Shown here: in pieces, positions 8,685 to 62,146 of the stretch | How the letters are laid out: every line of letters starts with the position of its first letter | Numbering within the stretch: the first letter of the stretch is position 1 | Source: Bryobacterales bacterium | GTDB taxonomy: Bacteria; Acidobacteriota; Terriglobia; Bryobacterales; UBA6623 | Direction of reading: 5' to 3' | Assembly (NCBI GenBank): GCA_026713545.1 | Contig: JAPOOG010000032.1 | Location: 8,379 to 72,378, forward strand | DNA: 64,000 bases | Notes under the pieces: generated by a model | Told to the model about the DNA's origin: nothing | The model's database searches: none | What the model saw: the letters and a program-made list of their open reading frames with translations, nothing else | Made by a program: the position numbers and the translations under genes

Positions 8685-11543
8685 TCAGTACACGTATAAG
8701 AATTCGTTGGAGTTGAACAGCGCCAGAGCCAGATCGGCCCAGGCGCGTATGCCGGGCGGCATCTCGCTCGGGTGCGGATTGTGCTCGTAAGGGCCGGTAT
8801 AAGCGGGCTGAACGAATTCGAAGCGTTCTCCGGTCAGCTCGCTTGTGATGGTGTGGACGATGTCCGTCGGCAATCGTCGGGCAGCAGCGGGGTTCCCCTC
8901 AAGGTGCGCCGTCATCTCCGCAACGAACTCTTCCGTCCAATCGCGCTCCTCGCTCGTGGGATCGCGGCCGAATGCCAGTCGAAATGCGCTCTCGACGCGC
9001 ATCCCCGCGGGCAAGGAATCCAGGCGCTGCGCCATGATCAGCGCCATGTCGCGCGACAGATCGGCATTGAGCAGGGCGAACGCCTGGGTCGGCACGGTGG
9101 ATGATTCCCGGCGCTCGCAGGTCAGGTCCGGATTTGCGCCGTTGAACACCTCGATCATGGGGTCCATCATGCTGCGCCGCTGGAAACTGTAAACGGAACG
9201 GCGGTTGCGTCTCCGCCGGGTCGGCTCGGCTTCGTAGACCGGCTGGAGGGTTCCCATCGCATGCCTCGGCTGGTGCGCTACTTCCGGATTGATCTGGGCG
9301 TACGTGCCGGGTCCGCCCGCGAAGTCGCTCAACTCGCCGGCAACCGCCATCATGCTGTCGCGAATTTCCTCGGCTTCCAGCCGGCGGGGTGAGAACCGCG
9401 CCAGGTAGATGTTCTCGGGGTCGAGCTTGTCCACCAACTCACGGTTCTGGTGATCGCTGGCTCGCCGGTACGCCTCCGAATACAGGATCACTCGATGGAC
9501 TGCCTTTACGCTCCAGCCCTGGTCAATGAAGAATACCGCCAGCCAATCCAACAGCTCCGGGTGCGAGGGCTTCTTTCCCATCTTTCCGAAGTTGTTCGCG
9601 TTCGAAGCCAGCCCGCGCCCGAAATGGTATTGCCAGACGCGATTGACCAGAACCCGGCTGGTCAGCGGATTGTCTGGATCCGCGATCCAGCGGGCCAGCG
9701 CGCTTCGCCGTCCGCTCAGGCGGTCCGGGATCTGCGGAGCCGGCAGATCGGAATAGCGCGCCACCGCTTCGAGCACACCTGGTGAAACCTCCTGCCCGGG
9801 CGCCTGGATGTCGCCTCCGGCCAGAACATGGGTTTTTGCTCGGGCATAGTCCCCCGGCTGCAAGTAGCTGTTCCGATACCTCAGGGCCTCCCATTCCTGG
9901 ACATAGCCGTTGCTGACCGTCATGGCCAGAGGCTCGAACCGCAACACGGACAGCTTGTGCATGATCACTCGCTTCCGCAGCAGCTTGAGCAGCTCAGCCT
10001 GCTCACTGCTCAGGTAACGCTGCAGCGTAGTGGTCCGGGCGTTGGCGGCGGCTTCGGGTCCCTTTGCCCGCGCGAGTCGCTCGCGGGCCGCTTCGTGGAG
10101 GTCGTGCATCCGGCGTTCCAGCTCTTCCAGGCGGGTCTGGATAGGCTTGCGGCCCTGGTCGAAGCCTTCCGTCGATTCTGACGGCAGGAACGGCAACGGG
10201 CGCCTCGCGAAAGCCGTCTTCGCGAAGACGGCTTGCATGCGGTAATAGTCCTTGGTGGGGATCGGGTCGAACTTGTGGTCGTGGCAGCGGGCGCAAGCCA
10301 GCGTCACCCCCAGGAACGACTGCCCCACGTGGTGCGTCACGTCGTCCAGGAAGAGCTGCCGGGTCACCGCCGCGACGGCCATGCCGGTATGCTCCCAAGG
10401 CCCCATCCTGAGAAAGCCGGTCGCAAGAATCGCCTCGGGATCGTCCGGGAACAACTCGTCGCCGGCGATCTGCTCGAGCACGAAGCGGTCGTATGGCTTG
10501 TCGCTGTTGAATGCGCGGATGACGTAGTCCCGGTAGCGCCAGGCATTGGGCCGCACGAAGTCATTGGAGTAGCCGGCGGTATCGGCGTAGCGCGTCACGT
10601 CGAGCCAATGACGCCCCCAACGCTCGCCATAGCGGGGAGAGTCCAGCAAGCGCTCGACGACTTTCTTGTAGGCCCCTTCGGATTCGTCGTCCAAAAAAGC
10701 CTGCACCTCTCCCGGAGTCGGAGGCAGGCCCGTCAGGTCGAACGTCAAACGCCGGATGAGCGTTCTCCTGTCGGCTCTCGGAGCCGGTTCGAGTCCCTTC
10801 TCTGCCAGACGGGCCAGGACAAAGCTGTCCACCGGAGTCTGCACGGCAGCCGGGTCTATCCTGCATTTCTCCCCACGCGGCGAGGTGAAGTGCGTGAGAG
10901 GGCCGTCAGGACGAGGCGCGAGCCGCTTGGCGCGCGCAGGCGTACTTGACCGTACGTCGAGCACGGCACGCAAGCGCAACGAAGTCATGGCGGTCGTATC
11001 GCGTGCTTCGGCCGTCGGGTGGGGAGAAAGGCAGGATATCCCTTCGGTTGGGGGCTCGACGCGCTTCACCGGCCGGAACGCCCAGATGTCGCCTTCCTCG
11101 AAATTCCACTTCGCCGTCGAGCGCCCATCCGCATAAGGGGCTCCCGCTGTGATCCATGCGCGGAATGCGTCCCGGGTCTCTTGGGGAAGCTGCTTCTCCG
11201 GCCCTCCGGGTGGCATGGCCAGCTCGCCGGCATGATCTATGGCCGACATCAGCAAGCTGTCGCCGGGCGATCCGCTCTCGATGGCCGGGCCTCGCTGACC
11301 GCCCTTCAGTGCGGCGTCCCGAGTGCGCAGGTCAAGATTGGCGAAGACGTTCCCTTCGCCGTGGCAGCCCAAGCATTGCTGCTTCAGCACCGGCTGGATG
11401 GTGTTGCGGAACAGTTCGGCAGGAGAATCCGCGGCGGCGGCTGAAGTCGCTCCAACCAAGCCGGAAAGGAAAATCAGGCCTGACCGCAGGAAACGAAGTC
11501 CTGACCCCGCACGGACCGCTTTCGATCGGTATCGTCGCCGCAT
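8685..11543 (-). CDS. PSCyt1 / DUF1549 (PSCyt2) / DUF1553 (PSD1) multidomain protein, carrying an in-frame repeat-element insertion
   Basis: Heme-like 'CLGCHG' near the N-terminus, then DUF1549-like 'PVDSFVLARLAEKGLEPAPRADRRTLIRRLTFDLTGLPPT', 'CARCHDHKFDP', and a DUF1553-like C-terminal part. Start set at the ATG at 11543 ('MRRRYRSK...'); the ORF is open to 11615. Confidence 0.85.
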   Translation of the reverse strand: MRRRYRSKAVRAGSGLRFLRSGLIFLSGLVGATSAAAADSPAELFRNTIQPVLKQQCLGCHGEGNVFANLDLRTRDAALKGGQRGPAIESGSPGDSLLMSAIDHAGELAMPPGGPEKQLPQETRDAFRAWITAGAPYADGRSTAKWNFEEGDIWAFRPVKRVEPPTEGISCLSPHPTAEARDTTAMTSLRLRAVLDVRSSTPARAKRLAPRPDGPLTHFTSPRGEKCRIDPAAVQTPVDSFVLARLAEKGLEPAPRADRRTLIRRLTFDLTGLPPTPGEVQAFLDDESEGAYKKVVERLLDSPRYGERWGRHWLDVTRYADTAGYSNDFVRPNAWRYRDYVIRAFNSDKPYDRFVLEQIAGDELFPDDPEAILATGFLRMGPWEHTGMAVAAVTRQLFLDDVTHHVGQSFLGVTLACARCHDHKFDPIPTKDYYRMQAVFAKTAFARRPLPFLPSESTEGFDQGRKPIQTRLEELERRMHDLHEAARERLARAKGPEAAANARTTTLQRYLSSEQAELLKLLRKRVIMHKLSVLRFEPLAMTVSNGYVQEWEALRYRNSYLQPGDYARAKTHVLAGGDIQAPGQEVSPGVLEAVARYSDLPAPQIPDRLSGRRSALARWIADPDNPLTSRVLVNRVWQYHFGRGLASNANNFGKMGKKPSHPELLDWLAVFFIDQGWSVKAVHRVILYSEAYRRASDHQNRELVDKLDPENIYLARFSPRRLEAEEIRDSMMAVAGELSDFAGGPGTYAQINPEVAHQPRHAMGTLQPVYEAEPTRRRRNRRSVYSFQRRSMMDPMIEVFNGANPDLTCERRESSTVPTQAFALLNADLSRDMALIMAQRLDSLPAGMRVESAFRLAFGRDPTSEERDWTEEFVAEMTAHLEGNPAAARRLPTDIVHTITSELTGERFEFVQPAYTGPYEHNPHPSEMPPGIRAWADLALALFNSNEFLYVY
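10860..11036. mobile_element. 177-bp TIR element, copy A, inserted in-frame in the PSCyt/DUF1553 gene
   Basis: Termini are CCTGCATTTCTCCCCAC ... GTGGGGAGAAAGGCAGG and the flanks are TAT/aTAT. Homologous to the copy at 55475-55651 and, partially, to 44489-44666, 30366-30450, 58036-58576 and 61880-61996. Confidence 0.8.
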
Positions 11544-25938: not shown

Positions 25939-25963
25939 ACTGAAGCCCTTCAGTCTTTTTTTC
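25939..25963 (+). terminator. Terminator-like hairpin + T-run carried on a repeat module
   Basis: ACTGAAG-CCC-CTTCAGT followed by CTTTTTTT. The same module occurs inverted at 54541-54566. Confidence 0.45.
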
Positions 25964-26150
25964 CCGCCCCGGTCGGCATAGCATGAGCACAGAGAGGCTA
26001 ACGAACGACCTGCCGTCGGCGCGGCGCTCGCCTCTGGCGGCTGCCCCCCACGACGGCAACACGGCTTTCCCCGCCGTGGATGCGCAAGGGTCGCGCCACC
26101 GGAAACTGCCGTCCGGGCCACTGCGCCAGCCGGCAAGTCACCGTTCTTCA

Positions 26151-26206
26151 GTTCACGATTGTTCACCATTGTTCGCCATTGTTCGCCATTGTTCGCCATT
26201 GTTCAC
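26151..26206. repeat. 10-bp tandem repeat, about 5.6 units (GTTCRCSATT)
   Basis: GTTCACGATT GTTCACCATT GTTCGCCATT GTTCGCCATT GTTCGCCATT GTTCAC, read directly from the sequence. Confidence 0.9.
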
Positions 26207-26445
26207 TAAAAAAATATTGCCCCTGCGCCACTGTCGTTGCCCCGTCCGCCGTTCTCGGTCGGCCTTACGACGAGCCTCGCCACCGGGCAGCTCCCGCTGC
26301 GGCGAACACAAAATGAAGCCATGCCGAGAAAAGGGAACATTCCAGCCTGCATTGACTGGAGTCGTGGACACTTTGCACCGGGAGGCTTAGAGTAGAGGTA
26401 CGCTGGAGGGCCGTCTGTTGCGGCCTTTCCGGGAAAGGGGAGTTC

Positions 26446-27687
26446 ATGCCTATCAATCGACGCCAGTTCCTCGGTGCGGCGGGCGCCGCCGCGGCCGCGG
26501 CCCACGCGGCGTGCGAAAGCCAGGGGGGCGCTTCCCCCACGCTTTCCGATATCGCTTCGATCCGAGAGCGGTACCCGCGCGTGCTGCGGCAGGCGTACCT
26601 CGACACGGCGGCGCACTGCCCGCTGAGCACACATACCCGCGAGGGGATGCAAAAGTACATGGACTTCCACATGTACGGCGGCGGGGAAGGTCGCGGCGAG
26701 TATGCCGGTGAGGCGATGCGTGCCGTCAAGCCGCAGTTCGCGCGCATGATCGGCGCGAAGCCTTCGGAGATCGCCTTCGTCCAGAACACGAAAGCGGGTG
26801 AGGACATTGTGGTGAACGGCCTGGACATCCAGGCCGCGGGCGGCAACGTCGTCACGAACGACCTGCACTACGCCGGCTCGATCCACAGCTTCCTCGGCCG
26901 CAAGAAAGCCGGCATGGATGTTCGGATCATCAAGTCGAAGGATTGGGTCACCGACCTTGACGCCATGGAAGCCGCGATCGACAAGAAGACCAGGCTCGTC
27001 GCGATCACATTGGTCTCGAACGTCAACGGACACGTCGAAGACGCCAAGGCCCTCACCGGGATGGCGCACGCGAACGGCGGGTATGTCTACGCCGACATCA
27101 TTCAGGCAGCGGGCGCCATCCCGATCGACGTCAAGGCGCTCGGTCTCGATTTCGCTGCTTGCTCGAATTACAAGTGGCTCCAGGGTTGCCGCGGCTCAGG
27201 CTTTCTGTACGTCCGCGAAGAACTGCAAGGCACGGCGGTGAAAGACCTGCTCTTCCCCGGCTATGTCCGCTTCAACTACCCGCCGTGGGTGGACCCCGCC
27301 GACGGTAACGAAGATCCGATGCCCTTTTCCCCGCCCAGGAACGCCGGCCGCTATCAGCCGGGCAATACGGCCCGCGAGGGCTACTGCGGCCAGTATGAGT
27401 CGTTCAAGGTGATGGAAGCGATCGGCGTCGAAAACATGCTGGCCCATACGATGGCCCTGGTCGACCGCATCCGCAAGGAGCTTCCGGAGAGCAGGTATCG
27501 GTGCATCACGCCCGAGGGCGCTCGCAGTCCGATCCTCGTTTTCATCCCGGCGGACTACGAGGGAACGCAAGCCAGGCTGAAACAGGCGAACATTCAGGCG
27601 ACCACGACGGGGAACCGTTTGCGAATCTCGCCCAACATCTACAACAACCAGGAAGATGTCGACAAGCTGCTCGACGCCTTGGTCTGA
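26446..27687 (+). CDS. Aminotransferase class-V-fold PLP-dependent enzyme, Tat signal + lipobox (paralog 2 of 4)
   Basis: 'MPINRRQFLGAAGAAAAAAHAACES' and 'CSNYKWLQGCRGSGF'. Confidence 0.85.
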   Translation: MPINRRQFLGAAGAAAAAAHAACESQGGASPTLSDIASIRERYPRVLRQAYLDTAAHCPLSTHTREGMQKYMDFHMYGGGEGRGEYAGEAMRAVKPQFARMIGAKPSEIAFVQNTKAGEDIVVNGLDIQAAGGNVVTNDLHYAGSIHSFLGRKKAGMDVRIIKSKDWVTDLDAMEAAIDKKTRLVAITLVSNVNGHVEDAKALTGMAHANGGYVYADIIQAAGAIPIDVKALGLDFAACSNYKWLQGCRGSGFLYVREELQGTAVKDLLFPGYVRFNYPPWVDPADGNEDPMPFSPPRNAGRYQPGNTAREGYCGQYESFKVMEAIGVENMLAHTMALVDRIRKELPESRYRCITPEGARSPILVFIPADYEGTQARLKQANIQATTTGNRLRISPNIYNNQEDVDKLLDALV

Positions 27688-27775
27688 CCGGAAACATTCT
27701 CTTGATCAAGCGGCATTGACAGCGGTCCGGATGTTTCCTGCTGGTATGATCCGTGTGCGGGCGGAGAAAAAAATA
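27685..27775. repeat. 85-89 bp hairpin element, copy 3 (intergenic, directly upstream of paralog 3)
   Basis: 'TGACCGGAAACATTCTCTTGATCAAGCGGCATTGACAGCGGTCCGGATGTTTCCTGCTGGTATGATCC...GGCGGAGAAAAAA'. It starts at the stop codon of paralog 2 and ends about 12 nt before the AGGAG RBS of paralog 3. Confidence 0.8.
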
Positions 27776-27787
27776 AAAGGAGCGGCC

Positions 27788-29056
27788 ATGAACTTCAATC
27801 GAAGATCGTTTCTTGCGGGAAGCGTCGCGGCGTCCGTGGCGTCGCAGCTCGGGTGCGGTCAGGAAAGTGATGCCGCGCCGGTGCTCGGAGACCTCGACAG
27901 CGCGCGCCGCGACTTCCCGCGGTCCGCGAACGGCGTGTACATGAATCACGCCTCGCAGCACACCCTCAGCGTACAATCGGCTCGGGCAATCCAGCGGTAC
28001 GCCGACTACCTTGCGAACGAATGCTCGCGAGCCGGTTGGTACGAGGTGTCGGACGATGCAAAGGCGCTTGGCGGCGCATACAAGCGCGAAGTCAAGGAGA
28101 TGTTCGCCAGGCTGATCAATGCCCGGCCGTCTGAGATCGCCTTCTGCCTGAGCACGACCGTCGGCGAGAACATGGTCGTGAACGGCATGGGCATTCAGGA
28201 GTCCGGCGGCAATGTCGTAACGAACGATTTGCACTATTCGAGCTGCCTGTACAACTACAAGATGCGCCAGCAGCGTGGTCTTGACGTGCGCATCGTCAAG
28301 CACAGAGACTGGCGGCTCGACCCGGCCGACTTCGAAACCCTCATCGACGACAAGACGAAGCTTGTCGCGCTGACGCTGGTTTCGAACGTCAACGGATTGC
28401 TCGCCCCGGTGAAGGAGATCGCCGGCATCGCGCATCGCAACGGCGCTTATGTCTACGCGGACATCATCCAGGCCTGCGGAGCCGTGCCCATCGACGTACA
28501 AGCCATGGGGATCGACTTTGCCGCCTGCTCGACCTACAAGTGGCTGATGGGACTGCGCGGTTTCGCCTACCTCTACATCAAGGAGGACCTGCAGGGAACC
28601 GTCGTGCAGCCCACGCAGTTCGGAGGAGGCGTGAGCTTCAACTACGAGCCCTGGGTCGAAAATCCCGACTCCGGCAGTGGCGAGATCGTCTACCGGCCGA
28701 AGCAGATGGCTTCCCAGTACGAAGTGGGCAACGTATCGAGTGTCGGATGCGTTTGCCAACAGGAGGCTCTGAACTTCATCCACCGGGTCGGCGTGGATGA
28801 GATTCAGGCGCACGCGACTCCCCTGACCGAGTTCCTGCAAGAGGAGATGCCGAAGATCGGGTATGCTTCGATCACTCCGAGTGGCAATCGAAGCCCGATC
28901 ACGACGTTTCGCGTCCCTGATCCGAAAGAGGCCGAGCGGCGGCTCAAGGAAGCCCATATCGAGGTGACGCTGCGGTTCGGTAATCAGATGCGCGTATCGG
29001 TGTCGGTGATGAACAACCAGCAGGATGTCGAGGCTTTGGTGGCGGCGCTGGCGTAA
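27788..29056 (+). CDS. Aminotransferase class-V-fold PLP-dependent enzyme, Tat signal + lipobox (paralog 3 of 4)
   Basis: 'MNFNRRSFLAGSVAASVASQLGCGQ' and 'CSTYKWLMGLRGFAY'. AAGGAG RBS. Confidence 0.85.
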   Translation: MNFNRRSFLAGSVAASVASQLGCGQESDAAPVLGDLDSARRDFPRSANGVYMNHASQHTLSVQSARAIQRYADYLANECSRAGWYEVSDDAKALGGAYKREVKEMFARLINARPSEIAFCLSTTVGENMVVNGMGIQESGGNVVTNDLHYSSCLYNYKMRQQRGLDVRIVKHRDWRLDPADFETLIDDKTKLVALTLVSNVNGLLAPVKEIAGIAHRNGAYVYADIIQACGAVPIDVQAMGIDFAACSTYKWLMGLRGFAYLYIKEDLQGTVVQPTQFGGGVSFNYEPWVENPDSGSGEIVYRPKQMASQYEVGNVSSVGCVCQQEALNFIHRVGVDEIQAHATPLTEFLQEEMPKIGYASITPSGNRSPITTFRVPDPKEAERRLKEAHIEVTLRFGNQMRVSVSVMNNQQDVEALVAALA

Positions 29057-29092
29057 ATGAAATGCGGCCGACTCGATCGATGGAGAAACCCT

Positions 29093-30352
29093 ATGAACTT
29101 TGATCGACGCGATTTCCTGGCCGGTTCCGCCACGCTCGGCTCCGGCATGTTCTTTGGTTGCAGTGCGGCGGATTCCAAGATCGCCGACACTGCGCTCACG
29201 GCCGAAAATGCCGACTTCGCAACCGCCCGAGCTGCTTTCCCCTGGTCAACGAAGCAGGTCTGGCTGAACAACGCCGGCCGGCATCCCTGTGGTGTTCACT
29301 CCGTCAACGCGGCCCGCGGGTATCTCGACTACATCCTTGATGGTCCGGGAAACGGCGCCGGCTTCGGAGAAAAGCAGTTCCACGATGTGAAGGCGTTGTA
29401 CGGCGAGCTCATCAACGCCAAGGCGTCGGAAATCGCGCTCGTGCAAAGCACGCTGATCGGCGAGAACCTCGTCGCTCTCGGTCTGGGCCTGCACGACGGC
29501 AAGGGCAACGTCGTCACCGACGAGCTGCACTATCACGGCGGAAGCTATATCTATCGCCGCCTGCAGGACGCCGGGCTCGAATTGCGGATCATCAAGCAGA
29601 AAGACTGGCAAGTCACTCCTGAGGAGTACGAGCGGGTGATCGACAACGACACGAAGCTCGTCTCGCTAACCCTGGTTTCGAACATCAACGGGTTTCTCTA
29701 CGACTCCAAGGCCATCAGCGAGATCGCGCATGCCAACGGCGCCTACGTTTATGCCGACGTCGTCCAGGCGGCCGGCTGCGTTCCCGTGGACATGCGGGCC
29801 ATGGGGATCGACTTCTGCTCGGCTTCGACCTACAAGTGGCTGATGGGGATGCGCGGCCTGGGGTTGTTCTACGTGCGGGAAGAGCTTCAGGGCGGCGTGC
29901 TCAAGCCGGTGATGTACGGGGACAAGCAATACTCGAACTTCGAGTTCCACTACTTTCCGGGGAGCCCGCCGGGCGAGACGCCGATCAGCTATCAACCGCG
30001 CGGCGGGGCGCAAATATATGAGGTCGGCAACGTCTCGAACATCGCCGGGGCGGCGCAGCGCGAGGCGCTCAAGTACATCCTCAAGCTCGGTGTCGACAAC
30101 ATCCTCGCCCATGCCAAGCCCATGTGCGACAAGCTGATCGAGGAGTTGCCGAAACTTGGTTACCCTTGCATCACGCCGCCGGGCAGCCCCACGCCCATCA
30201 CGGCTTTTCTCGTCGAGAACCCCGAAGAAACCAGCGCCAGATTGAGAGCCGCCAAAGTCGCTGCCAAGGTCAAGTGGAAACAGATGCGTGTCTCGCCCTC
30301 CGTCTTCAACACGATGGCCGACGTGGACCAATTGCTGGATGCGTTATCCTGA
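29093..30352 (+). CDS. Aminotransferase class-V-fold PLP-dependent enzyme, Tat signal + lipobox (paralog 4 of 4)
   Basis: 'MNFDRRDFLAGSATLGSGMFFGCSA' and 'ASTYKWLMGMRGLGL'. Confidence 0.85.
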   Translation: MNFDRRDFLAGSATLGSGMFFGCSAADSKIADTALTAENADFATARAAFPWSTKQVWLNNAGRHPCGVHSVNAARGYLDYILDGPGNGAGFGEKQFHDVKALYGELINAKASEIALVQSTLIGENLVALGLGLHDGKGNVVTDELHYHGGSYIYRRLQDAGLELRIIKQKDWQVTPEEYERVIDNDTKLVSLTLVSNINGFLYDSKAISEIAHANGAYVYADVVQAAGCVPVDMRAMGIDFCSASTYKWLMGMRGLGLFYVREELQGGVLKPVMYGDKQYSNFEFHYFPGSPPGETPISYQPRGGAQIYEVGNVSNIAGAAQREALKYILKLGVDNILAHAKPMCDKLIEELPKLGYPCITPPGSPTPITAFLVENPEETSARLRAAKVAAKVKWKQMRVSPSVFNTMADVDQLLDALS

Positions 30353-30365
30353 CCGGTCGTATGAG

Positions 30366-30683
30366 CCTGTATTTCTCATCACGTGGCGAGACGAAGTGCG
30401 TGAGAGGGCCGTCAGGACGAGGCGCGAGCCGCTTGGCGCGCGCAGGCGTAGCGGCCATATTGCCTCCTTTGGCCTTCGGGTCACGAAACATGAGACACGG
30501 CCTTTACGGTTCACCGCCCGTCAGACATTTCTTTCGAGAACGAACCAGGCCCCCCGCCAGGGTTTTTCAAGAATCACGGCCTTGTACGCAAGCCGCCTTG
30601 GAGCGACAGCCGTACCGCCCGCCTGGGTTTTGGGGTCACGAATCACGCGACACGAGACACGAAACACGGCCTTTTAATGCAGG
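30366..30683. repeat. Long-form composite element B (one arm of the 177-bp element + S-core module + heptamer words)
   Basis: Starts CCTGTATTTCTCATCACGTGGCGAG...GCCGCTTGGCGCGCGCAGG (arm shared with copies A and D). Continues with the S-core 'CCGTCAGACATTTCT' at 30496-30568, then 'CACGAATCACGCGACACGAGACACGAAACACGG', and ends ...TTAATGCAGG. Fills almost the whole 361-bp intergenic gap. Confidence 0.75.
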
Positions 30684-43598: not shown

Positions 43599-44495
43599 CT
43601 ACGTTTTGCGGATGTCTCTGTGAGAGACCTTCACTTCGCATCCAGCGCCCGTGAGGTTGCGGCCGACCGCATCCGCGATCATCACCGAGCGATGCCGGCC
43701 CCCCGTGCAACCGAATGCAATCGTCAGGTAGCTCTTGCCCTCACGCACGTAATGGGGGACGAGATACAGCAGCAGGTCGGAAATCCGGCCGATGAACTCC
43801 CCGGTCTGCGGAAACGACCGTACGTACCGAATGACCTTCGGATGCTTGCCGGAAAGATTCTTGCAACCCGGCACATAGTGCGGGTTCGGCAGGAACCGAA
43901 CATCGAAAACCAAGTCGCTGTCGCTTGGCAAGCCGTGTTTGAAACCGAAGCTGTTCACCGTGACGAGCAGTTGCGGTCTGTCTTGAGCGCTCTGGAATCG
44001 CGTTACGATCAGACGCCTCAGATCGTGAATGTTGAACTGCGACGTATCGAGAATCAGATCCGCAAGCTTTTGAATGGATCGTAGCGCCTGCCTCTCCGCC
44101 CGGATGCTGTTGAGGACGGACGTACCCGTGCCCAGCGGGTGTGGTCGACGTGTCTCACTGAAGCGCCTTTGTAGAACGTCGTCCGCGGCTTCAAGAAACA
44201 GCAGAAACACACGATTCTGCCTCCTCAGTTCCTGAAAGATTCCGGGAAACTTCTTGAGGGCCCGGCCTTCACGAATATCGACCACCAGAGCGGCCCGGGA
44301 GATTTCCGGAGAGTGTCTACAGAGCTCGGCGAAGGTCGGGATCAAGTCAATCGGCAGATTGTCGACGGCATAGAAACCCATATCCTCAAAGACCTTCAGC
44401 ACAGAGACTTTGCCCGAGCCGCTAAGTCCGGTCAGGATGACGAGTTCGTATGCCCCGCCCGGCGCTTCCCCCGCGCTGCTTGTCTCAGCCGTCAT
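43599..44495 (-). CDS. rapZ: RNase adapter protein RapZ (P-loop NTPase, YhbJ family)
   Basis: Walker A 'GLSGSGKVSVLKVFEDMGFYAVDNLP' and C-terminal 'IAFGCTGGRHRSV'. Confidence 0.9.
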   Translation of the reverse strand: MTAETSSAGEAPGGAYELVILTGLSGSGKVSVLKVFEDMGFYAVDNLPIDLIPTFAELCRHSPEISRAALVVDIREGRALKKFPGIFQELRRQNRVFLLFLEAADDVLQRRFSETRRPHPLGTGTSVLNSIRAERQALRSIQKLADLILDTSQFNIHDLRRLIVTRFQSAQDRPQLLVTVNSFGFKHGLPSDSDLVFDVRFLPNPHYVPGCKNLSGKHPKVIRYVRSFPQTGEFIGRISDLLLYLVPHYVREGKSYLTIAFGCTGGRHRSVMIADAVGRNLTGAGCEVKVSHRDIRKT

Positions 44496-44666
44496 TTCTC
44501 ACCCACCTGACGGCAGAAGCACGCGATACGACGTTCATGACTTCGTTGCGCACGCTTACTGTGCTCAATGTTAAGGGCAAGTACACCTGCGCGTGCCAAG
44601 CCGCTCGCGCCACGTCCTGACGGCCCTTTCAGGCACCTCACCTCCCCACGTGATGAGAAAGGTCGG
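44489..44666. repeat. Degenerate copy C of the 177-bp TIR element, between hpf and rapZ, overlapping the rapZ start codon
   Basis: 'CCGTCATTTCTCACCCACCTGACGGC...GCCAAGCCGCTCGCGCCACGTCCTGACGGCCCTTTCAGGCACCTCACCTCCCCACGTGATGAGAAAGGTCGG' aligns along its length with copy D. The CAT (ATG of rapZ) at 44493-44495 lies in the left terminus. Confidence 0.7.
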
Positions 44667-44719
44667 CTAGCCGGCTCCGTCTTGCGACGATAAGCGCTCA
44701 TAATGGCTGCGAAGAGTGC

Positions 44720-53985: not shown

Positions 53986-54924
53986 GCCTCCAGTTTATCG
54001 TCGAAGCTGCTGAATTCCGTCTCCTCAGACATGGATGTCAACTCCCAGCATGGTTCATTCACCGCGAATGGACACGAACCAACACGAATGAGGGGCGTTT
54101 TCGCCGCGGAGGCGGGAGCTGTGCGCCAATTCGCGTCCACAGTAGCGGGTCCAGCCCGGAGGTCGACGGGAGCGGCGGTGAACGGCGCTCGTCGTGAGGC
54201 CGACCGCGAGCGGCGGACGGCGCGCCGGCACTGGCACAGATGCAATATTTTTTGCCGGGAAATAGTGGGCAATACCGGGAAATAGTGGGCAGGCAAGCAG
54301 TGGCTGGGCTGCGGGCGTGGCAGCCTGACCTGCATCTCTACCCGCCCGGCGTCCGAAGCACGCGAGGTAAAGGCCGTGATTCGTGTTTCGTGATTCGTGA
54401 AAAGCATAAAAGCCGTGATTCGTGTCTCGTGAAAAACCTTAAAAGCAGTGGCTAGTGAAAGCCTTGAAAGCTCTGATTCGTGACCCGCACCGACTGTGCC
54501 TCGTTGCCTCCCTGTCCTCATGCTATGCAGGCCGGGGAAGAAAAAAAAGACTGAAGGGCTTCAGTACCTAGAGGTATTAAAAAAACCGTGATTCGTGTTT
54601 CGTGATTCGTGAAAAACACTGGTGAGGCCTCGTTCGCTCCAGAAGAAATGTCTGACGGCCGTTGAACCGTAAAGGCCGTGTTGCCGTCGTGGGGGGCAGC
54701 CTCTACAGCGAGCGCCTCGCCGTTCACGGTGCTACGCGGGCCGTTCTCGGCGCCAAGCAGGATTTCACCACGGACTGCCAGCTCACCGGGGAACTTCCTA
54801 CATTGCGCCGACACTCCGCAGACATGAAGCTCGTTACCTCACCGCAGACTTCCAGCCGCGCCTGACGAAAATACCAAGCAGCTTTCACCTCGCCTGCCCT
54901 CTCGCAGCACCTATCTGCTAACTT
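53986..54924. repeat. Mosaic intergenic repeat zone 4 (inverted relative to zone 1; includes a 20-bp x2 repeat, heptamer words, the hairpin module and an S-core)
   Basis: Components are 54170-54250 (reverse complement of roughly 26200-26290), 54255-54294 (CCGGGAAATAGTGGGCA x2), 54371-54480 (GTGATTC/GTGTTTC words), 54518-54625 (reverse complement of roughly 25891-25985), the S-core at 54611-54680, and 54700-54790 (reverse complement of roughly 25585-25640). Confidence 0.8.
54541..54566 (-). terminator. Terminator-like hairpin + T-run (minus strand) on a repeat module
   Basis: The plus strand reads AAAAAAAAGACTGAAGGGCTTCAGTAC, which on the minus strand is a hairpin followed by T8. Confidence 0.4.
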
Positions 54925-55368
54925 GTGCATAAGGACATGGGCTCCGGACTCGAAAGCAGGCTCACGCGTGTGATCGCCCTCATCGTGATCGGGGCGCTTC
55001 TTCCGTGGCCGGGAGTCCTCAGCGCCACCGCTTCCGACGACGACCGCTGCGCCCGCCACGGCCGCAGTTGCGAATGCGTCGAGATGTGCCGGCGCGAAGA
55101 GAAAGAGCACCACACGAAAGCCGAGGCGCCTAGCTGTCATCGCGAATCCAAACAGCGCGCAGCACCACCCAAGCCGGAAACGGGTTGCCGCATGACAAGT
55201 TGCGGCTCTGACGACCCGGCCCGGGCTCAAAGCTCCGACCCCTCGACACCACCGCTTCCGCAGCACGAGCTCGCCGCCCCCAGGGCTTCCGAACGAGCCC
55301 GGCCCGCCGACGCCGAAACAGAGGCTCCGGCGTTTGCGGCTCCGCCTCACCCTCCCCCCAGAGCCTGA
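54925..55368 (+). CDS. Small exported Cys/His-rich hypothetical protein upstream of a TonB-dependent receptor
   Basis: GTG at 54925 or ATG at 54937. TM/signal 'VIALIVIGALLPWPGVLSA', then 'CARHGRSCECVEMCRREEKEHH...SCH...GCRMTSCG', then a Pro/Ala-rich tail. GC3-rich in the first half. Coding status is moderate. Confidence 0.5.
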   Translation: MHKDMGSGLESRLTRVIALIVIGALLPWPGVLSATASDDDRCARHGRSCECVEMCRREEKEHHTKAEAPSCHRESKQRAAPPKPETGCRMTSCGSDDPARAQSSDPSTPPLPQHELAAPRASERARPADAETEAPAFAAPPHPPPRA

Positions 55369-55461
55369 CCTGATTCCGCCGCATCGTCAACGGACGGCCC
55401 GCTAACGGCGGGCCCGGTTTCGGCTATTCGCAAGCCGTTCAGTTTGGGGAGGTTTCCATTC

Positions 55462-57930
55462 ATGAAGCCCTTAGCCTGCATGTCTCACCACCCGACGGCC
55501 GCAGCACGCGATAAGACCGCCATGACTTCGTTGCGCTTGCTTGCCGTGCTCGACGTACTGTCAAGTACACTTGCGCGCGCCAAGCGGCTCGCGCCTCGTC
55601 CTGACGGCCCTCTCACGCACTTCACCTCGCCGCGTGGTGAGACATGCAGGCTAGCCGGGTTCGTATTGCATTTGCTGTTTTGCACCGTTGCCGCGGCAAG
55701 CGTGACCGTTGTCGTGGAAGATCCCGGCGGTGACCGCATCGCGGGCGCGCGAGTCGCCCTGCAAACTTCTGTGGGGCGTGAGATCGAAACGCGCCGTACG
55801 TCCGACGCCGGTGAAGCCTCCTTCGAGGGAAATCAAGCCGGCCGCATCGTCGAGGTCGCCGCCGACGGTTTCGAGCCCCAGCTCGTTCTCGTCCCCGACG
55901 ACGAAACGCTCGTTGTCCGCCTGGCGATCGCGACGGTGGCCACCACGATCGAAGTCGAAGCCGAAGCGGAGCCCACCGTCGCCGTCCAGGAAACCGACGC
56001 CTCCGAGCTGGCAGCGATCCCCTCGACCGATCTCATCGAAAATCTGCGCGCCACCCCGGGAGTGAGCGTGCTGCGCCGAGGCGCCACCAACATCGAACCG
56101 GTCGTCGAAGGCCTGCGCGAAACCCAGCTCGCCATGGTCGTCGACGGCACCCGCACCTTCGCCGCCGGCCCTGCCCGCATGGACTCCGAGCTGAGTCACG
56201 TCGAGCCGGGCCACATCAGCAGCGTCGAAGTCGTCACCGGTCCCTACGCCCTGACCAAGGCCGCCGGCGCATTCGGCGCCATTCTGGTGACTTCGCCACA
56301 GGTTCCCCGCTTTGACCGCTGGCAGTTCGGAGGCGGAACCGGCAGCGGCTATCGCAGCAACGGCTCCGGCCGCTACGGACGAGCTCGCCTGTTCGCGGGA
56401 GACAACCGCTTCGGATTCAGCTTGCGCGCCGCGGGCAACCAGGGCAATGACTACCGGGCCGGCGACCGTGGACCGATCAAGGACATCACCATCCCCGGCG
56501 ACTTCAGCAATCACCAGTTCGGCGGCAAGCTGCGCTTCAACCCGGCCAGCAAGCAGGAGATCGCGCTTGGCGGTTTCTACGACGAGCAGACCGGAGTCGA
56601 CTACCCCGGCCGGCTGCTCACCGCCGAGCACTTCATTCTGCGATCGTTCTCCGGCAACTACTACGCCGCCAACCCGGCAGACGGCATCACCGCCATCAAG
56701 GGCAACCTCTACCTCAACAAGAAAAGCCACCGCATGAGCAACCGCGAAAAGCCAACAGCGCTCCCGATGATGGGCCGAAAACCTCCCTTCGCACTCGACG
56801 TAGCACTCCCCACGGAAGCCGATACGCTGGGCGGCTCCGGCAGTGTCGAGTTCGCCCTCACGGAGACGTGGCGGCTGCAGACGGGCTTCGACTTCTACCA
56901 CCTCAGCCAAGACGCGCAACGCTTCGTCGCCCGTCAAGACGACGGCCGGCTGCTCTTCAGCGATGCCGTATGGCCCGACGCCACCATCAACGACCAGGGC
57001 GTTTACGTGCAGACCGTGGGCGCGTTCGAGCGCGGCGAGGTTGCCGCCGGCGCGCGCGCCGATTTCGTGCAGGCCGACGCCGGACGCCCTTCGGACTTCT
57101 TTCTCGCCAACGCCGGCCACGGGATCGACCGTAACGAAACGAATTTCAACGCCAGCCTCGCGGGCCGCTACCGCCTCATCGACGGCGTCTCTCTCTCCGC
57201 CGGAGTGGGCAACGTGCGGCGCACGGCGAACGCGCTGGAGCGCTTCTCCGACCGCTTTCCGAGCACCCGTTTCCAGATCGCAGCCGAGTTCATGGGCCTA
57301 CCGACGATCCAGCCGGAATCCAGCACGCAAGGCAACCTGAACGTCGACGTTACGGTCCGCGACTTCCGGTTCAGCGCCGGCGGTTTCCTCCGCCGCATCA
57401 ACGACTACATCACGGTCCGCCCCGACCCCGACCTGCCGAAACGCCTGCCGCTCAGCCCTGCCGTCGTCTTCCGGTACATCAACGGCGACCACGCGACGTT
57501 CCGCGGCTACCAGTTGGGCGCGGAATACCGCGGTTCGCGCTGGTTCCAGTTCCGCAGCCGGGCCGCCAAGGTCATCGCCGATGACCGCGAGCTCAACGAG
57601 CCCGTCCTCGGCATCGCGCCCTTCGAGCTCTACTCCAGCGTACGCATCCTCGAACCGTCAGGGCGATTCTGGAGCGAGTATTCCGTCCGCAATGTCTGGG
57701 ACCAGCAGCGGGTTTCGATCAGACGCCTCGAAACCCCGTCACCCGGCTTCAGCACGCACGACCTGCGTATTGGAGTGGAAGTACATAAAAAGATCAAGCT
57801 GCACTTCGGACTCGAGAACCTGGGCGACAAGCACTATTTCGAGCACCTGAACTCGCCCAACCCATTCACTCGCCAACGGATCCCCGAGCCCGGCCGCACG
57901 GTTTACCTCAGCCTGACCACCGACTGGTGA
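55462..57930 (+). CDS. TonB-dependent receptor (CarbopepD_reg-like domain + plug + barrel) with the 177-bp element inserted in-frame in its signal-peptide region
   Basis: GGGGAGG RBS then ATG at 55462. 'VTVVVEDPGGDRIAGARVAL', plug 'VSVLRRGATNIEPVVEGLRETQLAMVVDG', and a C-terminal '...VYLSLTTDW'. Confidence 0.85.
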   Translation: MKPLACMSHHPTAAARDKTAMTSLRLLAVLDVLSSTLARAKRLAPRPDGPLTHFTSPRGETCRLAGFVLHLLFCTVAAASVTVVVEDPGGDRIAGARVALQTSVGREIETRRTSDAGEASFEGNQAGRIVEVAADGFEPQLVLVPDDETLVVRLAIATVATTIEVEAEAEPTVAVQETDASELAAIPSTDLIENLRATPGVSVLRRGATNIEPVVEGLRETQLAMVVDGTRTFAAGPARMDSELSHVEPGHISSVEVVTGPYALTKAAGAFGAILVTSPQVPRFDRWQFGGGTGSGYRSNGSGRYGRARLFAGDNRFGFSLRAAGNQGNDYRAGDRGPIKDITIPGDFSNHQFGGKLRFNPASKQEIALGGFYDEQTGVDYPGRLLTAEHFILRSFSGNYYAANPADGITAIKGNLYLNKKSHRMSNREKPTALPMMGRKPPFALDVALPTEADTLGGSGSVEFALTETWRLQTGFDFYHLSQDAQRFVARQDDGRLLFSDAVWPDATINDQGVYVQTVGAFERGEVAAGARADFVQADAGRPSDFFLANAGHGIDRNETNFNASLAGRYRLIDGVSLSAGVGNVRRTANALERFSDRFPSTRFQIAAEFMGLPTIQPESSTQGNLNVDVTVRDFRFSAGGFLRRINDYITVRPDPDLPKRLPLSPAVVFRYINGDHATFRGYQLGAEYRGSRWFQFRSRAAKVIADDRELNEPVLGIAPFELYSSVRILEPSGRFWSEYSVRNVWDQQRVSIRRLETPSPGFSTHDLRIGVEVHKKIKLHFGLENLGDKHYFEHLNSPNPFTRQRIPEPGRTVYLSLTTDW
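55475..55651. mobile_element. 177-bp TIR element, copy D (in-frame in the TonB receptor 5' end)
   Basis: CCTGCATGTCTCACCAC ... GTGGTGAGACATGCAGG, with flanks TTAG / cTAG. Removing 180 bp gives 'MKPLAGFVLHLLFCTVAAASV', a normal signal peptide. Confidence 0.8.
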
Positions 57931-58035: not shown

Positions 58036-58576
58036 CCTGCATTTCTCACCACCGACGGCCGAAGCACACGAGGAAAAGGCCGTGGTTAGTGGTTAGTGGT
58101 TAGTTATTAGTGAAAAACCTTTGGCGGGGGCTTGGTCCGCTCCAGAAGAAATGTCTGACGGCCAGCGAACCGTAAGGCCATGATTCGTGCTTCATGACCC
58201 GAGGGCCGAAAGAGGCGAGATGGCCGCTAGCAGCCCGTGGTGAAAGTCACGCGGGCGGCGTTACGCGCCTTGGGGTCGATTGCGCAACGTGTGGCTGCTC
58301 CAGTAACGCAGCACCGCGCTCTCCGAGCAACCGAGCGGAAGGGGCGCGTGACCCGTTGGGCGACGGACATTTGCAGTCGTCGGCTTTGTCGTTCGTCGGA
58401 GGAGATCACCCGGACCGCCATGCTCCTCACTCCGCGCCGAGCAACCGCAGGAGCCCGCCGCGCCTTCCACGGGACTTCCACCACGGACTGCTAGGCCTGC
58501 GCGCGCCCAGCGGCTCGCTCCTCGCCCTGACGGCCCTCTCACACACTTCACCTCGCCGCGTGGTGAGAAATGCAGG
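58036..58576. repeat. 541-bp composite element E bounded by both TIRs of the 177-bp family and flanked by ATCAT direct repeats
   Basis: Left end CCTGCATTTCTCACCAC (58036). Right end GTGGTGAGAAATGCAGG (ends 58576). ATCAT lies immediately outside both ends. The interior carries GTGGTTA heptamers (58081-58112), an S-core (58112-58182) and extra modules. Confidence 0.75.
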
Positions 58577-60418: not shown

Positions 60419-60834
60419 TGCGGAGAAGTGTATCACGCGGGGGGTCGCAGACAGCGAATAAAGGCCGTGATTCGTGATTCGTGTCTCGTGAAAAACATTG
60501 GTGGGGGCCTGGTTCGCTCCAGAAGAAATGTCTGACGGCAGATGAACCGGAAAGGCCGTGTGTCGTGTCAAAAACCCGTGTTTCGTTTCTCTTGTCTCGT
60601 GTTTCGTGAAGCGAAAGGCGGAAAGGACGTGATGCGTGATGCGAAAAACCTTTGGGTGACGGACGTTTTTGTTCCGAGACCACGAATGGACACGAATCAA
60701 CACGAAGGGAGGGGTGTTTTATTGCGCCGGCGGTGATGCGGGCAAGCGCCCAGAGGGCACCCGCGCGCTACCAGGGCTCCACGCCTTCCACGGGATTTTT
60801 TACCACCACCACGGGCTGTTATGTCTTTGGGATA
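60419..60834. repeat. Mosaic intergenic repeat zone 6 (heptamer words, S-core, 'CACGAATGGACACGAA' module, 'ATGCGGGCAAGCGCCCAGAGGGCAC' module)
   Basis: S-core at 60490-60560. Word tracts at 60466-60490 and 60556-60660. The 60681-60790 stretch shares modules with 54060-54100 and, inverted, with 25790-25850. Confidence 0.75.
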
Positions 60835-61749: not shown

Positions 61750-61996
61750 CCTGCATTAAAGGCCGTGTTTCGTGACTCGTGACTCGTGTCTCGTGTCTCG
61801 TGAAAACCGTTGGCGGGGGTCTAGTTCGCTCTCGAAAGAAATGTCTGACGGTCGGTGAACCGTAAAGGGCGTGTTTCGTGAACCGAGGGGTGAAGGAGGC
61901 GATATGGCCACTACATCTGCGCGCGCCCAGCGGGGCTCACCTCGCCCCGACGGCCCTCTCACGAACTTCGCCTCGCCACGCGGCGAGAAATACAGG
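61750..61996. repeat. Long-form composite element F (heptamer words + S-core + one arm of the 177-bp element)
   Basis: Starts CCTGCATTAAAGGCCGTG. Words GTGTTTC/GTGACTC/GTGTCTC at 61764-61802. S-core at 61802-61873. Arm '...GCGCGCGCCCAGCGGGGCTCACCTCGCCCCGACGGCCCTCTCACGAACTTCGCCTCGCCACGCGGCGAGAAATACAGG'. Begins 15 nt upstream of the ATG at 61734. Confidence 0.75.
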
Positions 61997-62146
61997 CCCA
62001 ATGTCATGGGAATTTCCCGGCAGCCGGGCCTTTGCCAAGCAGCGCTTTCCATCCACGAGACTAACATGCGCGGCGCTGAGAAAAACGGCAGTTGTCTATC
62101 CGGTTCGGGGGCCGGTCTGAAACAATAAAGTCTGCCCGCCGGACTC

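What the first reader, a model, noticed from the sequence alone, without database searches (positions are those of the whole stretch)
55462..55660. The same element, in the same orientation and reading frame, is inserted in the signal peptide of a TonB-dependent receptor
Copy D (55475-55651, TIRs CCTGCATGTCTCACCAC / GTGGTGAGACATGCAGG, flanks TTAG / cTAG) lies 13 nt after the ATG.

Excising 180 bp restores 'MKPLAGFVLHLLFCTVAAASV', a canonical signal peptide. With the element, the protein starts 'MKPLA-CMSHHPTAAARDKTAMTSLRLLAVLDVLSSTLARAKRLAPRPDGPLTHFTSPRGETCRLA-GFVLHLL...'.

Relative to the host gene, the element is read in the same strand and frame as in the PSCyt/DUF1553 gene, and the two inserted peptides appear to share most residues. 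Two of two intragenic copies in one window sharing orientation and frame suggests selection for one tolerated 'coding' frame. A 60-aa insertion ahead of the hydrophobic core should also change export or translation initiation of this receptor.
Basis: partly seen in the sequence, partly recalled or inferred. Interest (0 to 1): 0.8.

Follow-up and report, generated by a model that had tools for sequence, protein, structure and literature searches.

The report
MITE inserted in-frame in receptor signal peptide
A 176-base mobile repeat (a MITE found in hundreds of copies in sponge-associated Bryobacterales) sits in frame just after the start codon of an outer-membrane receptor gene, adding 60 amino acids to the part of the signal peptide that is normally cut off; this is a clear new example of a known phenomenon, not a new kind of system.

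Summary
Copy D (55475-55650, perfect 17-nt inverted ends, 4-bp duplication TTAG/CTAG) lies 13 nt after ATG 55462 of a TonB-dependent receptor gene. Orthologues with an empty site begin MKPLAG…/MKPLVG…, so the element is inside the ancestral coding sequence.

The family is a MITE. I found 145 full-length copies in the sampled Bryobacterales loci. They make 4-bp YTAR target duplications and show presence/absence differences between close relatives.

The frame shared with the PSCyt/DUF1553 copy is real, but it is largely forced. The TAR in the target excludes one phase per strand. Only 176-nt-class copies (+4 bp = 180) keep the host frame. In the 176-nt copies read here, three of the four remaining strand/phase combinations carry stop codons. 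Exceptions exist: one opposite-strand in-frame copy whose two stops have mutated away, and one frame-breaking copy in a higA-like gene.

ATG 55462 keeps a conserved GGAGG; no other in-frame start has one. Every length variant at this site and at two PSCyt sites is a multiple of three. The receptor stays under purifying selection (dN/dS about 0.14), while the inserts evolve almost freely.

Most likely the insert lengthens the cleaved n-region and is tolerated. Export and start-codon use are untested. The closest analogue is the Rickettsia palindromic elements.

The parts
55446..55452 (+). Shine-Dalgarno-like GGGGAGG, 9 nt upstream of ATG 55462
   Evidence: The duplex with the anti-SD sequence is -11.4 kcal/mol, below the 1st percentile of random window positions. 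All other in-frame starts score -3.7 or weaker. GGAGG is conserved in all six filled and empty alleles aligned.
55462..57930 (+). TonB-dependent receptor gene (CarboxypepD_reg-like, Plug and beta-barrel domains), read from the ancestral ATG through the element
   Evidence: Pfam finds PF13620 (weak), PF07715 and PF00593. Orthologues start at this ATG. dN/dS is 0.15 against L005 and 0.135 between two chimeric alleles.
55471..55474 (+). Left target-site duplication, TTAG
   Evidence: The empty sites read CCCTTAGTCGGG (L117) and CCCCTAGCCGGG (L001). Across the family the duplication is 4 bp with consensus YTAR.
55475..55650 (+). MITE copy D, 176 nt, with 17-nt perfect terminal inverted repeats at 55475-55491 and 55634-55650. 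It is read in its frame +2 as 58 of the 60 inserted residues.
   Evidence: The RNA hairpin has an MFE of -88.3 kcal/mol with z = -6.3.
55651..55654 (+). Right target-site duplication, CTAG
55657..55704 (+). Unchanged hydrophobic core and likely cleavage region of the signal peptide (GFVLHLLFCTVAAASV)
   Evidence: The Kyte-Doolittle maximum is 2.35 both with and without the insert, shifted by 60 residues. The same segment is present in empty alleles.
10860..11035 (-). MITE copy A, 176 nt, in frame in the linker between PSCyt1 and PSCyt2 of the PSCyt/PSD1 gene (8685-11522, minus strand)
   Evidence: The site is empty in L113, L114, P0377 and P0380, and filled in L112, P0379 and P0382.
44490..44668 (+). 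MITE copy C, degenerate. Its left end overlaps ATG 44495 of the minus-strand rapZ-like ORF 43599-44495.
30362..30560 (-). Chimeric copy B: the right half of the MITE fused to a second repeat family
58036..58576 (+). Composite E: the same inverted-repeat ends 541 nt apart, flanked by ATCAT on both sides, and enclosing a copy of the second repeat family. It is absent from the syntenic locus L005.
61778..62000 (+). Chimeric copy F: second repeat family plus the MITE right half

Best explanation
Copy D is a non-autonomous DNA transposon (MITE). It is 176 nt long, has 17-nt terminal inverted repeats, and makes a 4-bp YTAR target duplication. The family is present in large numbers in sponge-associated Bryobacterales (Acidobacteriota).

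**Shown.**
- It inserted at a TTAG/CTAG site that spans codons 4-5 of a TonB-dependent receptor gene.
- 176 + 4 = 180 nt, and the phase 'YTA R|CC TGC...' puts the host frame into the element's one open frame. The ORF therefore continues from the ancestral ATG 55462.
- The 60 extra residues are basic and not hydrophobic. They sit between the five-residue n-region (MKPLA) and the intact hydrophobic core (GFVLHLLFCTVAAASV).

**Inferred.**
- Translation still starts at ATG 55462, which keeps the only good Shine-Dalgarno sequence.
- The insert acts as a long n-region that is removed together with the signal peptide, so the mature receptor is unchanged and the insertion is tolerated.
- The strong hairpin, which begins about 10 nt after the ATG, probably lowers initiation or mRNA stability rather than abolishing expression.

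The frame shared with the PSCyt copy is a survivorship effect. It comes from the target-site phase, the element length and the positions of stop codons. It is not a designed coding function.
For: **MITE anatomy and mobility**
- Among 145 full-length copies, lengths are 177 nt (70 copies) and 176 nt (36), with minor classes. Non-palindromic 4-bp duplications occur directly, for example CTAA/CTAA, TTAG/TTAG and ATAA/ATAA.
- Empty and filled alleles exist at the receptor site, at two PSCyt sites, at window ~5858 (filled in L019) and at composite E.

**Position in the coding sequence**
- Empty alleles at 81% to at least 90% identity begin MKPLAG, MKPLVG or MKPGVG at the same ATG, behind the same GGAGG.

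**Start codon**
- The SD duplex is -11.4 kcal/mol at ATG 55462. Every other in-frame start scores -3.7 or weaker. The first starts downstream of the element lie inside the hydrophobic core.

**Frame maintenance**
- At this site the insert is 180 nt in the window. In a widespread chimeric allele it is 165 nt, and the host frame is its only open forward frame.
- In PSCyt alleles, the protein lengths and aligned peptides imply a linker insert of 180 nt (with a 54-nt in-frame deletion in P0383) and an N-terminal insert of about 180 nt in P0386. The 204-nt N-terminal insert in L113 was read directly from the DNA.

**Host genes still constrained**
- For the mature receptor, omega is 0.135 between two chimeric alleles and 0.15 between the window and L005. 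For PSCyt it is 0.13.
- The inserts are relaxed: 4 synonymous and 6 nonsynonymous changes in one, 0 and 5 in the other.

**Forced frame**
- In the 176-nt copies read, only (+, frame +2) is open in D. A also has one open minus-strand frame.
- YTAR is never in the stop-codon phase within coding sequence.

**Further in-frame fusions in frame +2**
- L107 (OMP-like ORF), L113 (also 13 nt after its ATG), P0459 (membrane protein), P0394 (TPR-like by eye) and P0414 (FGE-sulfatase protein, just before its hydrophobic segment).
Against: - There is no experimental or predictor-based test of start-codon use, export or cleavage. SignalP is not available here.
- The public annotation (MCY4585007.1 = P0362) starts the protein at the internal ATG 55522, inside the element.
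- The -88 kcal/mol hairpin begins inside the ribosome footprint of ATG 55462 and could block initiation there.
- Allele identities do not give a clean tree. The empty alleles P0361 and P0365 are closer to the chimeric alleles than the window is. The age of the insertion, and 'selection since insertion' for the window allele itself, therefore rest partly on the chimeric-allele comparison.
- The statistical weight of the multiple-of-three length variants is modest (three events, about 0.04 by chance).
Confidence: 0.65

Rival explanations
1. The element is effectively a 5'-leader insertion. The receptor is translated from a start inside the element (ATG 55522, as in the public annotation) or just after it (TTG 55666 or 55672). 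The open frame from ATG 55462 would then be incidental.
For: - NCBI's annotation starts at MTSLRLL..., which is ATG 55522 (P0362).
- Gene callers also start inside the element for the N-terminal PSCyt insertions (P0242, P0383, P0386).
- The hairpin overlaps the initiation region of ATG 55462.
- For a 176-nt copy in this phase the open frame comes automatically, so the window allele alone says nothing about selection.
Against: - No SD-like sequence precedes any internal or downstream start: -0.4 kcal/mol at 55522 and -3.7 at 55666, against -11.4 at 55462.
- ATG 55522 lies inside the paired part of the hairpin.
- A start at TTG 55666 would leave a leader with no charged n-region.
- The SD and ATG are conserved in all alleles.
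- The rearranged 165-nt allele is again in frame, and the host frame is its only open forward frame.
- Ribosomes starting at 55462 would read through in the same frame in any case.
Confidence: 0.2
2. The insertion is mildly or strongly deleterious. It silences or cripples the receptor through the hairpin, RNase III-type cleavage or failed export, and the allele simply has not yet been purged.
For: - Empty alleles coexist at 94-95% identity to the window's mature protein, so the insertion is polymorphic.
- The hairpin is exceptionally stable (z = -6.3).
- In the related chimeric allele the left arm has been replaced and the excess structure is gone (z = 0). That could be a compensatory change.
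Against: - The 2.3-kb ORF is intact in the window.
- Alleles that carry an insert show omega of 0.135-0.15, the same as comparisons with empty orthologues (0.12-0.13).
- Insert-bearing alleles were recovered from many samples.
Confidence: 0.08
3. The insert has been co-opted. The extended leader, or its RNA hairpin, regulates translation or targeting of secreted proteins. This would explain repeated insertions near the start codons of exported-protein genes.
For: - Two independent insertions lie exactly 13 nt after the ATG of two secreted-protein genes: the receptor here and PSCyt in L113.
- A third lies just before the hydrophobic segment of an FGE-sulfatase protein.
- The frame is kept through later rearrangements.
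Against: - The inserted peptides evolve with omega of about 0.5, or with only nonsynonymous changes.
- The interior of the insert can be swapped for unrelated repeat sequence, so no sequence-specific function is conserved.
- The YTA-R phase needs the rare Leu codons CTA or TTA. YTAR sites are scarce in coding DNA, at 0.53 per kb.
- Empty alleles persist in close relatives.
Confidence: 0.07

Closest known systems
Rickettsia palindromic elements (RPEs; Ogata et al. 2000 Science 290:347, as summarised in PMC10969869)
   Same: Both are short palindromic mobile repeats of about 150-180 bp. They are found inserted in frame in unrelated protein-coding genes, add a conserved peptide without destroying the host ORF, and sit at positions compatible with host protein function.
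   Different: - This family has clear 17-nt terminal inverted repeats and a 4-bp YTAR duplication.
- Most of its copies are intergenic. In the sample, 4 of 145 copies were found as ORF-preserving intragenic insertions and 1 as frame-breaking, whereas nearly half of RPEs are intragenic.
- The host is a free-living or sponge-associated acidobacterium, not an obligate intracellular alphaproteobacterium.
- There is no sequence relationship.
Intragenic ERIC, BOX, QMITE1 and Anabaena MITEs (reviewed in PMC10969869)
   Same: These are MITE-type repeats that carry open frames and occasionally form in-frame fusions with host ORFs. They form stable RNA hairpins.
   Different: They belong to different sequence families and have different target duplications. 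The review does not mention insertion into a signal peptide; the word 'signal' does not occur in it.
IS5-family insertion sequences (IS5 group) and their MITE derivatives
   Same: A 4-bp target duplication at YTAR/CTAG-type sites is, from my own knowledge of ISfinder descriptions, the hallmark of the IS5 group.
   Different: No transposase-bearing partner with these inverted repeats was found. The only long element carrying these ends is the MITE interrupted by an IS110-family element. Similarity of the inverted repeats to known IS5 members was not tested.
Extended signal peptides (for example the ESPR of autotransporters)
   Same: Both are Sec leaders of 50 or more residues in which a long, charged N-terminal extension precedes a normal hydrophobic core and cleavage site. 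This shows that long n-regions can be compatible with export (my own knowledge).
   Different: ESPR is a conserved, vertically inherited motif. Here the extension is transposon-derived, is polymorphic between strains and evolves freely. There is no homology (Pfam search negative).

Membership tests
MITE (miniature inverted-repeat transposable element) | Terminal inverted repeats | tested here: met
   The 17-nt repeats in D are perfect. The same ends occur in 145 full-length copies.
MITE (miniature inverted-repeat transposable element) | Target-site duplication of fixed length flanking each copy | tested here: met
   The duplication is a 4-bp direct repeat with consensus YTAR, including non-palindromic pairs. 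Empty sites contain a single copy.
MITE (miniature inverted-repeat transposable element) | Small size with no transposase gene | tested here: met
   Copies are 176-202 nt. The translated frame has no significant Pfam match.
MITE (miniature inverted-repeat transposable element) | High copy number and insertion polymorphism between related genomes | tested here: met
Filled and empty alleles were found at five loci.
MITE (miniature inverted-repeat transposable element) | An autonomous element with matching ends that supplies the transposase | tested here: not met
   No DDE transposase lies between any pair of inverted-repeat ends in the sampled loci. The 1618-bp units are MITEs carrying an IS110-family insert. 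Only about 0.9 Mb was sampled, so absence is not established.
IS5-family derivative | 4-bp duplication at YTAR targets | tested here: met
IS5-family derivative | Inverted repeats matching a known IS5-family member or transposase | not tested
   No ISfinder-type library was available and no partner was found.
RPE-like in-frame 'coding' repeat | Copies inserted in frame in intact, unrelated host genes | tested here: met
   Hosts are the receptor, PSCyt (two sites), the L107 ORF, and the P0459, P0394 and P0414 hosts.
RPE-like in-frame 'coding' repeat | A large fraction of copies intragenic | tested here: not met
   Only 4 ORF-preserving and 1 disruptive intragenic copies were found among 145 sampled. 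The rest are intergenic or lie at gene ends.
RPE-like in-frame 'coding' repeat | Encoded peptide under selective constraint | tested here: not met
   The PSCyt insert shows 0 synonymous and 5 nonsynonymous changes. The chimeric insert shows omega 0.53, against 0.13 in the host. The numbers are small.
Sec-type cleavable signal peptide (with insert) | Positively charged n-region, hydrophobic h-region, small residues at -3 and -1 | tested here: inconclusive
   The h-region and the AAASV motif are unchanged. The n-region grows from 5 to 65 residues and is net basic, the 60-residue insert having 9 K+R against 4 D+E. No signal-peptide predictor or experiment was available.

The most novel reading that the evidence does not exclude
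In these Bryobacterales the signal-peptide n-region is a recurrent landing site where this MITE has been co-opted. The transposon-derived leader and its hairpin, starting about 10 nt after the ATG, would tune translation initiation or Sec targeting of secreted and outer-membrane proteins. Strain-level presence/absence would then act as a heritable expression switch.
Probability: 0.08. Interest if true: 0.65.

Novelty: new member of a known kind. Interest (0 to 1): 0.4.

Why it matters
- It adds a well-documented case from Acidobacteriota to the short list of bacterial MITEs that persist inside protein-coding genes. It comes with empty-site controls and allele series.
- It shows concretely why such copies share one frame: target-site phase, element length and stop-codon positions.
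- It points to the cleaved signal peptide as a place where a 60-residue insertion costs the mature protein nothing.
- It has a practical consequence for annotation. Gene callers start this receptor, and some PSCyt alleles, inside the repeat, and they call dozens of spurious 40-100-residue 'hypothetical proteins' on intergenic copies.

Tried and rejected
- **Rfam, whole window, gathering thresholds:** no match.
- **Promoter and terminator consensus scan, 54000-56000:** nothing above the shuffle expectation.
- **Pfam on the leader with its insert:** only a sub-threshold DUF2514 hit.
- **Search for the autonomous parent.** The recurring 1618-bp unit with the same ends looked like a candidate. It encodes an IS110-family DEDD transposase and is better read as a nested insertion. 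All other end pairs 1.1-1.8 kb apart enclose ordinary host genes.
- **Word-indexed peptide profile search.** It returned only ORFs of 41-102 residues. It missed P0241, which is in the collection and carries the insert, so I did not use it as a census. The exhaustive search did find longer hosts, but by design it sees only frame +2.
- **Dating the insertion from allele identities.** This failed because empty, 176-nt and chimeric alleles do not form a clean hierarchy, probably through recombination.
- **Excision footprint.** The MKPGVG empty allele (L116) is not an obvious one.
- **Third signal-peptide case (L118/P0414).** Its start codon is ambiguous, so I count it only as possible.
Full report
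**1. The observation**

ATG 55462 is followed by AAG CCC TTA G. Next comes a 176-nt element (55475-55650) with perfect 17-nt terminal inverted repeats, CCTGCATGTCTCACCAC and GTGGTGAGACATGCAGG. After it comes CTAG CCGGG.

The end motif occurs seven times in the window at up to 3 mismatches, against 0.1 expected by chance. The whole element is 93% identical to a reverse-oriented copy at 10856-11038. The long ORF reads MKPLA-CMSHH...GETCRLA-GFVLHLLFCTVAAASV-TVVVEDP.

**2. What the element is**

*Copies in the window.* There are three full copies: A at 10860-11035 (minus strand), C at 44490-44668 (degenerate) and D. There are also chimeric or composite copies (B, E, F) in which the right half is joined to a second repeat family.

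Nearly all are from Bryobacterales MAGs: three finished chromosomes and a fragmented MAG named RHO3_bin_12. In these loci I found 145 full-length copies, mostly 177 nt (70) or 176 nt (36), with minor classes at 185-188 and 197-202 nt.

*Target duplication.* Every copy is flanked by a 4-bp direct duplication with consensus YTAR. Non-palindromic pairs such as CTAA/CTAA, TTAG/TTAG and ATAA/ATAA rule out a 2-bp TA duplication.

*Mobility.* It is shown by filled and empty alleles at five places:
- the receptor site;
- two sites in the PSCyt gene;
- an extra copy in L019 at the position of window ~5858;
- composite E, which is absent from the syntenic locus L005.

*Classification.* This is a MITE with an IS5-type target. 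No transposase-bearing partner was found. The recurring 1618-bp unit with the same ends is the MITE interrupted at one fixed central position by an IS110-family element.

*RNA and source.* The RNA of copy D folds into a long hairpin (-88.3 kcal/mol, z = -6.3). Rfam has no match. The window matches a 103-kb contig of a Bryobacterales MAG: P0362 (MCY4585007.1) is identical to the window's receptor read from ATG 55522.

**3. Is the element inside the coding sequence?**

Yes.
- P0002 (81% identical, 762 aa) starts MKPLAGLLLPFLFC. Its DNA reads GGAGG-N6-ATGAAACCCCTAGCCGGG.
- Members of the window's own 90% cluster with empty sites start MKPLVGF or MKPGVGF. L117 reads ATGAAGCCCTTAGTCGGG.
- All filled and empty alleles keep GGAGG at the same distance from the same ATG.
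- In the window this SD gives -11.4 kcal/mol with the anti-SD, below the 1st percentile of random positions.
- No other in-frame start inside or after the element exceeds -3.7. The first starts after the element lie within the hydrophobic core.

**4. The shared frame**

Copy A sits in the PSCyt1/PSCyt2/PSD1 gene between the PSCyt1 domain (residues 50-105) and PSCyt2 (from residue 230). It is on the same strand and in the same frame relative to its host as D. The two peptides are 82% identical.

This agreement is largely forced, for three reasons:
- The target contains TAR, so the phase in which TAR is a codon cannot occur in a gene. In confident coding sequence, YTAR occurs 148 times as 'YTA R' and 101 times as 'nYT ARn', and never in the third phase.
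- Only elements whose length plus 4 is divisible by 3 keep the host frame. That is about 31% of copies, and it excludes the dominant 177-nt class.
- In the 176-nt copies read here, three of the four remaining strand/phase combinations contain stops. Only (+, frame +2) is open.

*Census.* In the sample of 145 full-length copies, which includes the window's A and D, I found four ORF-preserving intragenic copies:
- window A;
- window D;
- L107 1515-1690, in an ORF ending GIGYRF;
- L096 6706-6881.

I found one disruptive copy: L085 3808-3984, a 177-nt copy inside the HTH domain of a higA-like gene.

L096 is on the opposite strand. In it, both TGA codons that copy A carries in that frame are CGA.

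Homologue searches added more cases, all in frame +2:
- L113, a 200-nt copy that is again 13 nt after the ATG of the PSCyt gene and is open from that ATG;
- hosts P0459 (membrane protein), P0394 (TPR-like by eye) and P0414 (FGE-sulfatase protein).

*Statistics.* A random intragenic insertion would preserve the ORF about 9% of the time: 148/249 for phase, 0.5 for strand and 0.31 for length. Three of the five unbiased intragenic cases belong to that class (my binomial estimate is about 0.006).

It is not absolute, and it is not evidence that the element evolved to be coding.

**5. Do the hosts stay functional, and is the insert translated?**

*Receptor site variants.* This site exists in three states among proteins at least 90% identical: empty (762 aa), the 176-nt copy (window), and a 55-residue chimeric version. 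In the chimeric version the left part is replaced by the second repeat family, joined at a shared CTGACGG. Both junctions are the same, including the TTAG/CTAG mismatch. The chimeric insert is 165 nt, and the host frame is its only open forward frame.

*PSCyt variants.* The linker insert occurs at 180 nt and, judging from the aligned protein of P0383, with an in-frame 54-nt deletion. The N-terminal insert occurs at 204 nt (read from L113's DNA) and about 180 nt (inferred from P0386). Some genomes carry both inserts. All three length changes are multiples of three.

*Selection.*

| Comparison | Region | Result |
|---|---|---|
| L005 vs L115 (two chimeric alleles) | mature receptor | dN/dS 0.135 |
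| window vs L005 | mature receptor | dN/dS 0.15 |
| filled alleles vs empty orthologue L001 | mature receptor | dN/dS 0.12-0.13 |
| window vs L112 | PSCyt downstream of insert | dN/dS 0.13 |
| L005 vs L115 | chimeric insert | 4 synonymous, 6 nonsynonymous (omega 0.53) |
| window vs L112 | PSCyt insert | 0 synonymous, 5 nonsynonymous |

So the hosts remain constrained. The inserts behave as nearly neutral spacers that need only stay open.

**6. Likely mechanism**

The insert is 60 residues long, with 9 K+R and 4 D+E. No hydrophobic window exceeds the threshold I used. The hydrophobic core and the AAASV region are unchanged.

The simplest reading is that the n-region of a Sec signal peptide has been lengthened from 5 to 65 residues. 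Because the leader is cleaved off, the mature receptor is unaffected. In the same way, copy A lies in an inter-domain linker. These steps are inferred, not shown.

The hairpin begins about 10 nt after the ATG and could reduce initiation or attract RNase III. The chimeric allele has lost that structure (z = 0).

**7. Rival readings**
- Translation only from an internal or downstream start, as in the public annotation.
- A deleterious allele that has not yet been purged.
- Co-option of the leader.

The evidence for and against each is given in the Rival explanations section.

**8. Comparison with known systems**

In-frame MITE insertions are known, above all the Rickettsia palindromic elements, but also intragenic ERIC, BOX, QMITE1 and Anabaena MITEs (PMC10969869). 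This family behaves like them. It differs in having clear inverted-repeat ends and a YTAR duplication, and in being mostly intergenic. It is unrelated in sequence and in host.

My literature searches found no description of it, nor of MITEs in sponge-associated Acidobacteria. I rate it a new member of a known kind, of moderate interest.

**9. Limits**
- The census is a sample, and it relies on a home-made codon-usage score.
- The peptide searches see only frame +2.
- Allele relationships are blurred, probably by recombination.
- There was no signal-peptide predictor, no expression data and no transposase partner.

Noticed in passing
L020 6304-7921; L066 64-1681; L071 4244-5861; L084 2511-4128 and 4847-6464; L074 2231-3838; L105 398-2050: A 1618-bp unit recurs. 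It is the 176-nt MITE split at one fixed central position, in the loop palindrome GTACTGTCAAGTAC, by an element of about 1440 bp that encodes an IS110-family DEDD transposase (PF01548 + PF02371). This looks like site-specific targeting of the MITE by an IS110 (bridge-RNA type) element, as is known for REP sequences.
   Followed up: partly
L078 4703-4879, L026 5601-5777, L046 6177-6353, L009 4196-4372, L058 6919-7096 and others: Many copies sit exactly on a gene's stop codon. The long upstream ORF ends at the TAG or TAA of the target duplication, so the insertion keeps the stop and leaves the gene intact.
   Followed up: no
window 44490-44668 and ORF 43599-44495 (minus strand): The longest ORF of the rapZ-like gene starts at an ATG that lies inside the degenerate inverted-repeat end of MITE copy C (GAGAA-ATG). 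A TGA from the same end lies two codons upstream. The element may have supplied or replaced this gene's start.
   Followed up: partly
window 54375-54433, 54587-54681, 58088-58184, 60466-60561, 61778-61874; chimeras at 30362-30560 and 61778-62000: A second interspersed repeat family is present (CGTGATTCGTG...GAAAAAC...GCTCCAGAAGAAATGTCTGACGG). It is fused to the right half of the MITE in several copies and in the receptor insert of L005, L006 and L115, where the join is at a shared CTGACGG.
   Followed up: partly
Relatives of window gene 8685-11522: P0386 (988 aa), P0383 (984 aa), P0242/L113: In some genomes the same PSCyt/PSD1 gene carries two in-frame MITE insertions, one 13 nt after the ATG and one in the PSCyt1-PSCyt2 linker. 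P0383 also has an in-frame 18-residue deletion inside the linker copy.
   Followed up: yes
window ~5857-5859 vs L019 3032-3207 (OZ242366.1): A syntenic region that is 94% identical in another Bryobacterales chromosome carries a 176-nt copy (duplication CTAG/CTAA) at a site that is empty in the window.
   Followed up: partly
window 55522 (ATG) and public proteins P0362, P0242, P0383, P0386: Public annotations start the receptor, and some PSCyt alleles, at codons inside the MITE. Dozens of 41-102-residue 'hypothetical proteins' of Bryobacterales are translations of intergenic copies.
   Followed up: partly
all loci plus window: The target motif YTAR is strongly depleted. It occurs 1.6 times per kb overall and 0.53 per kb in confident coding sequence, against 9.3 per kb expected from base composition.
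   Followed up: no
L096 6706-6881: A 176-nt copy is read on its opposite strand inside a tape-measure-like ORF (weak PF20155 match). Both TGA codons that the 176-nt copy A carries in that frame are CGA here, so the host ORF stays open.
   Followed up: partly
window 24500-30400: Four tandem paralogous units, with start-to-start spacing of about 1.3-2.2 kb, are 60-75% identical to each other (repeat families D1, D2, D6, D8, D10). This looks like a tandem array of related genes, and a chimeric MITE copy lies at its end (30362).
   Followed up: no
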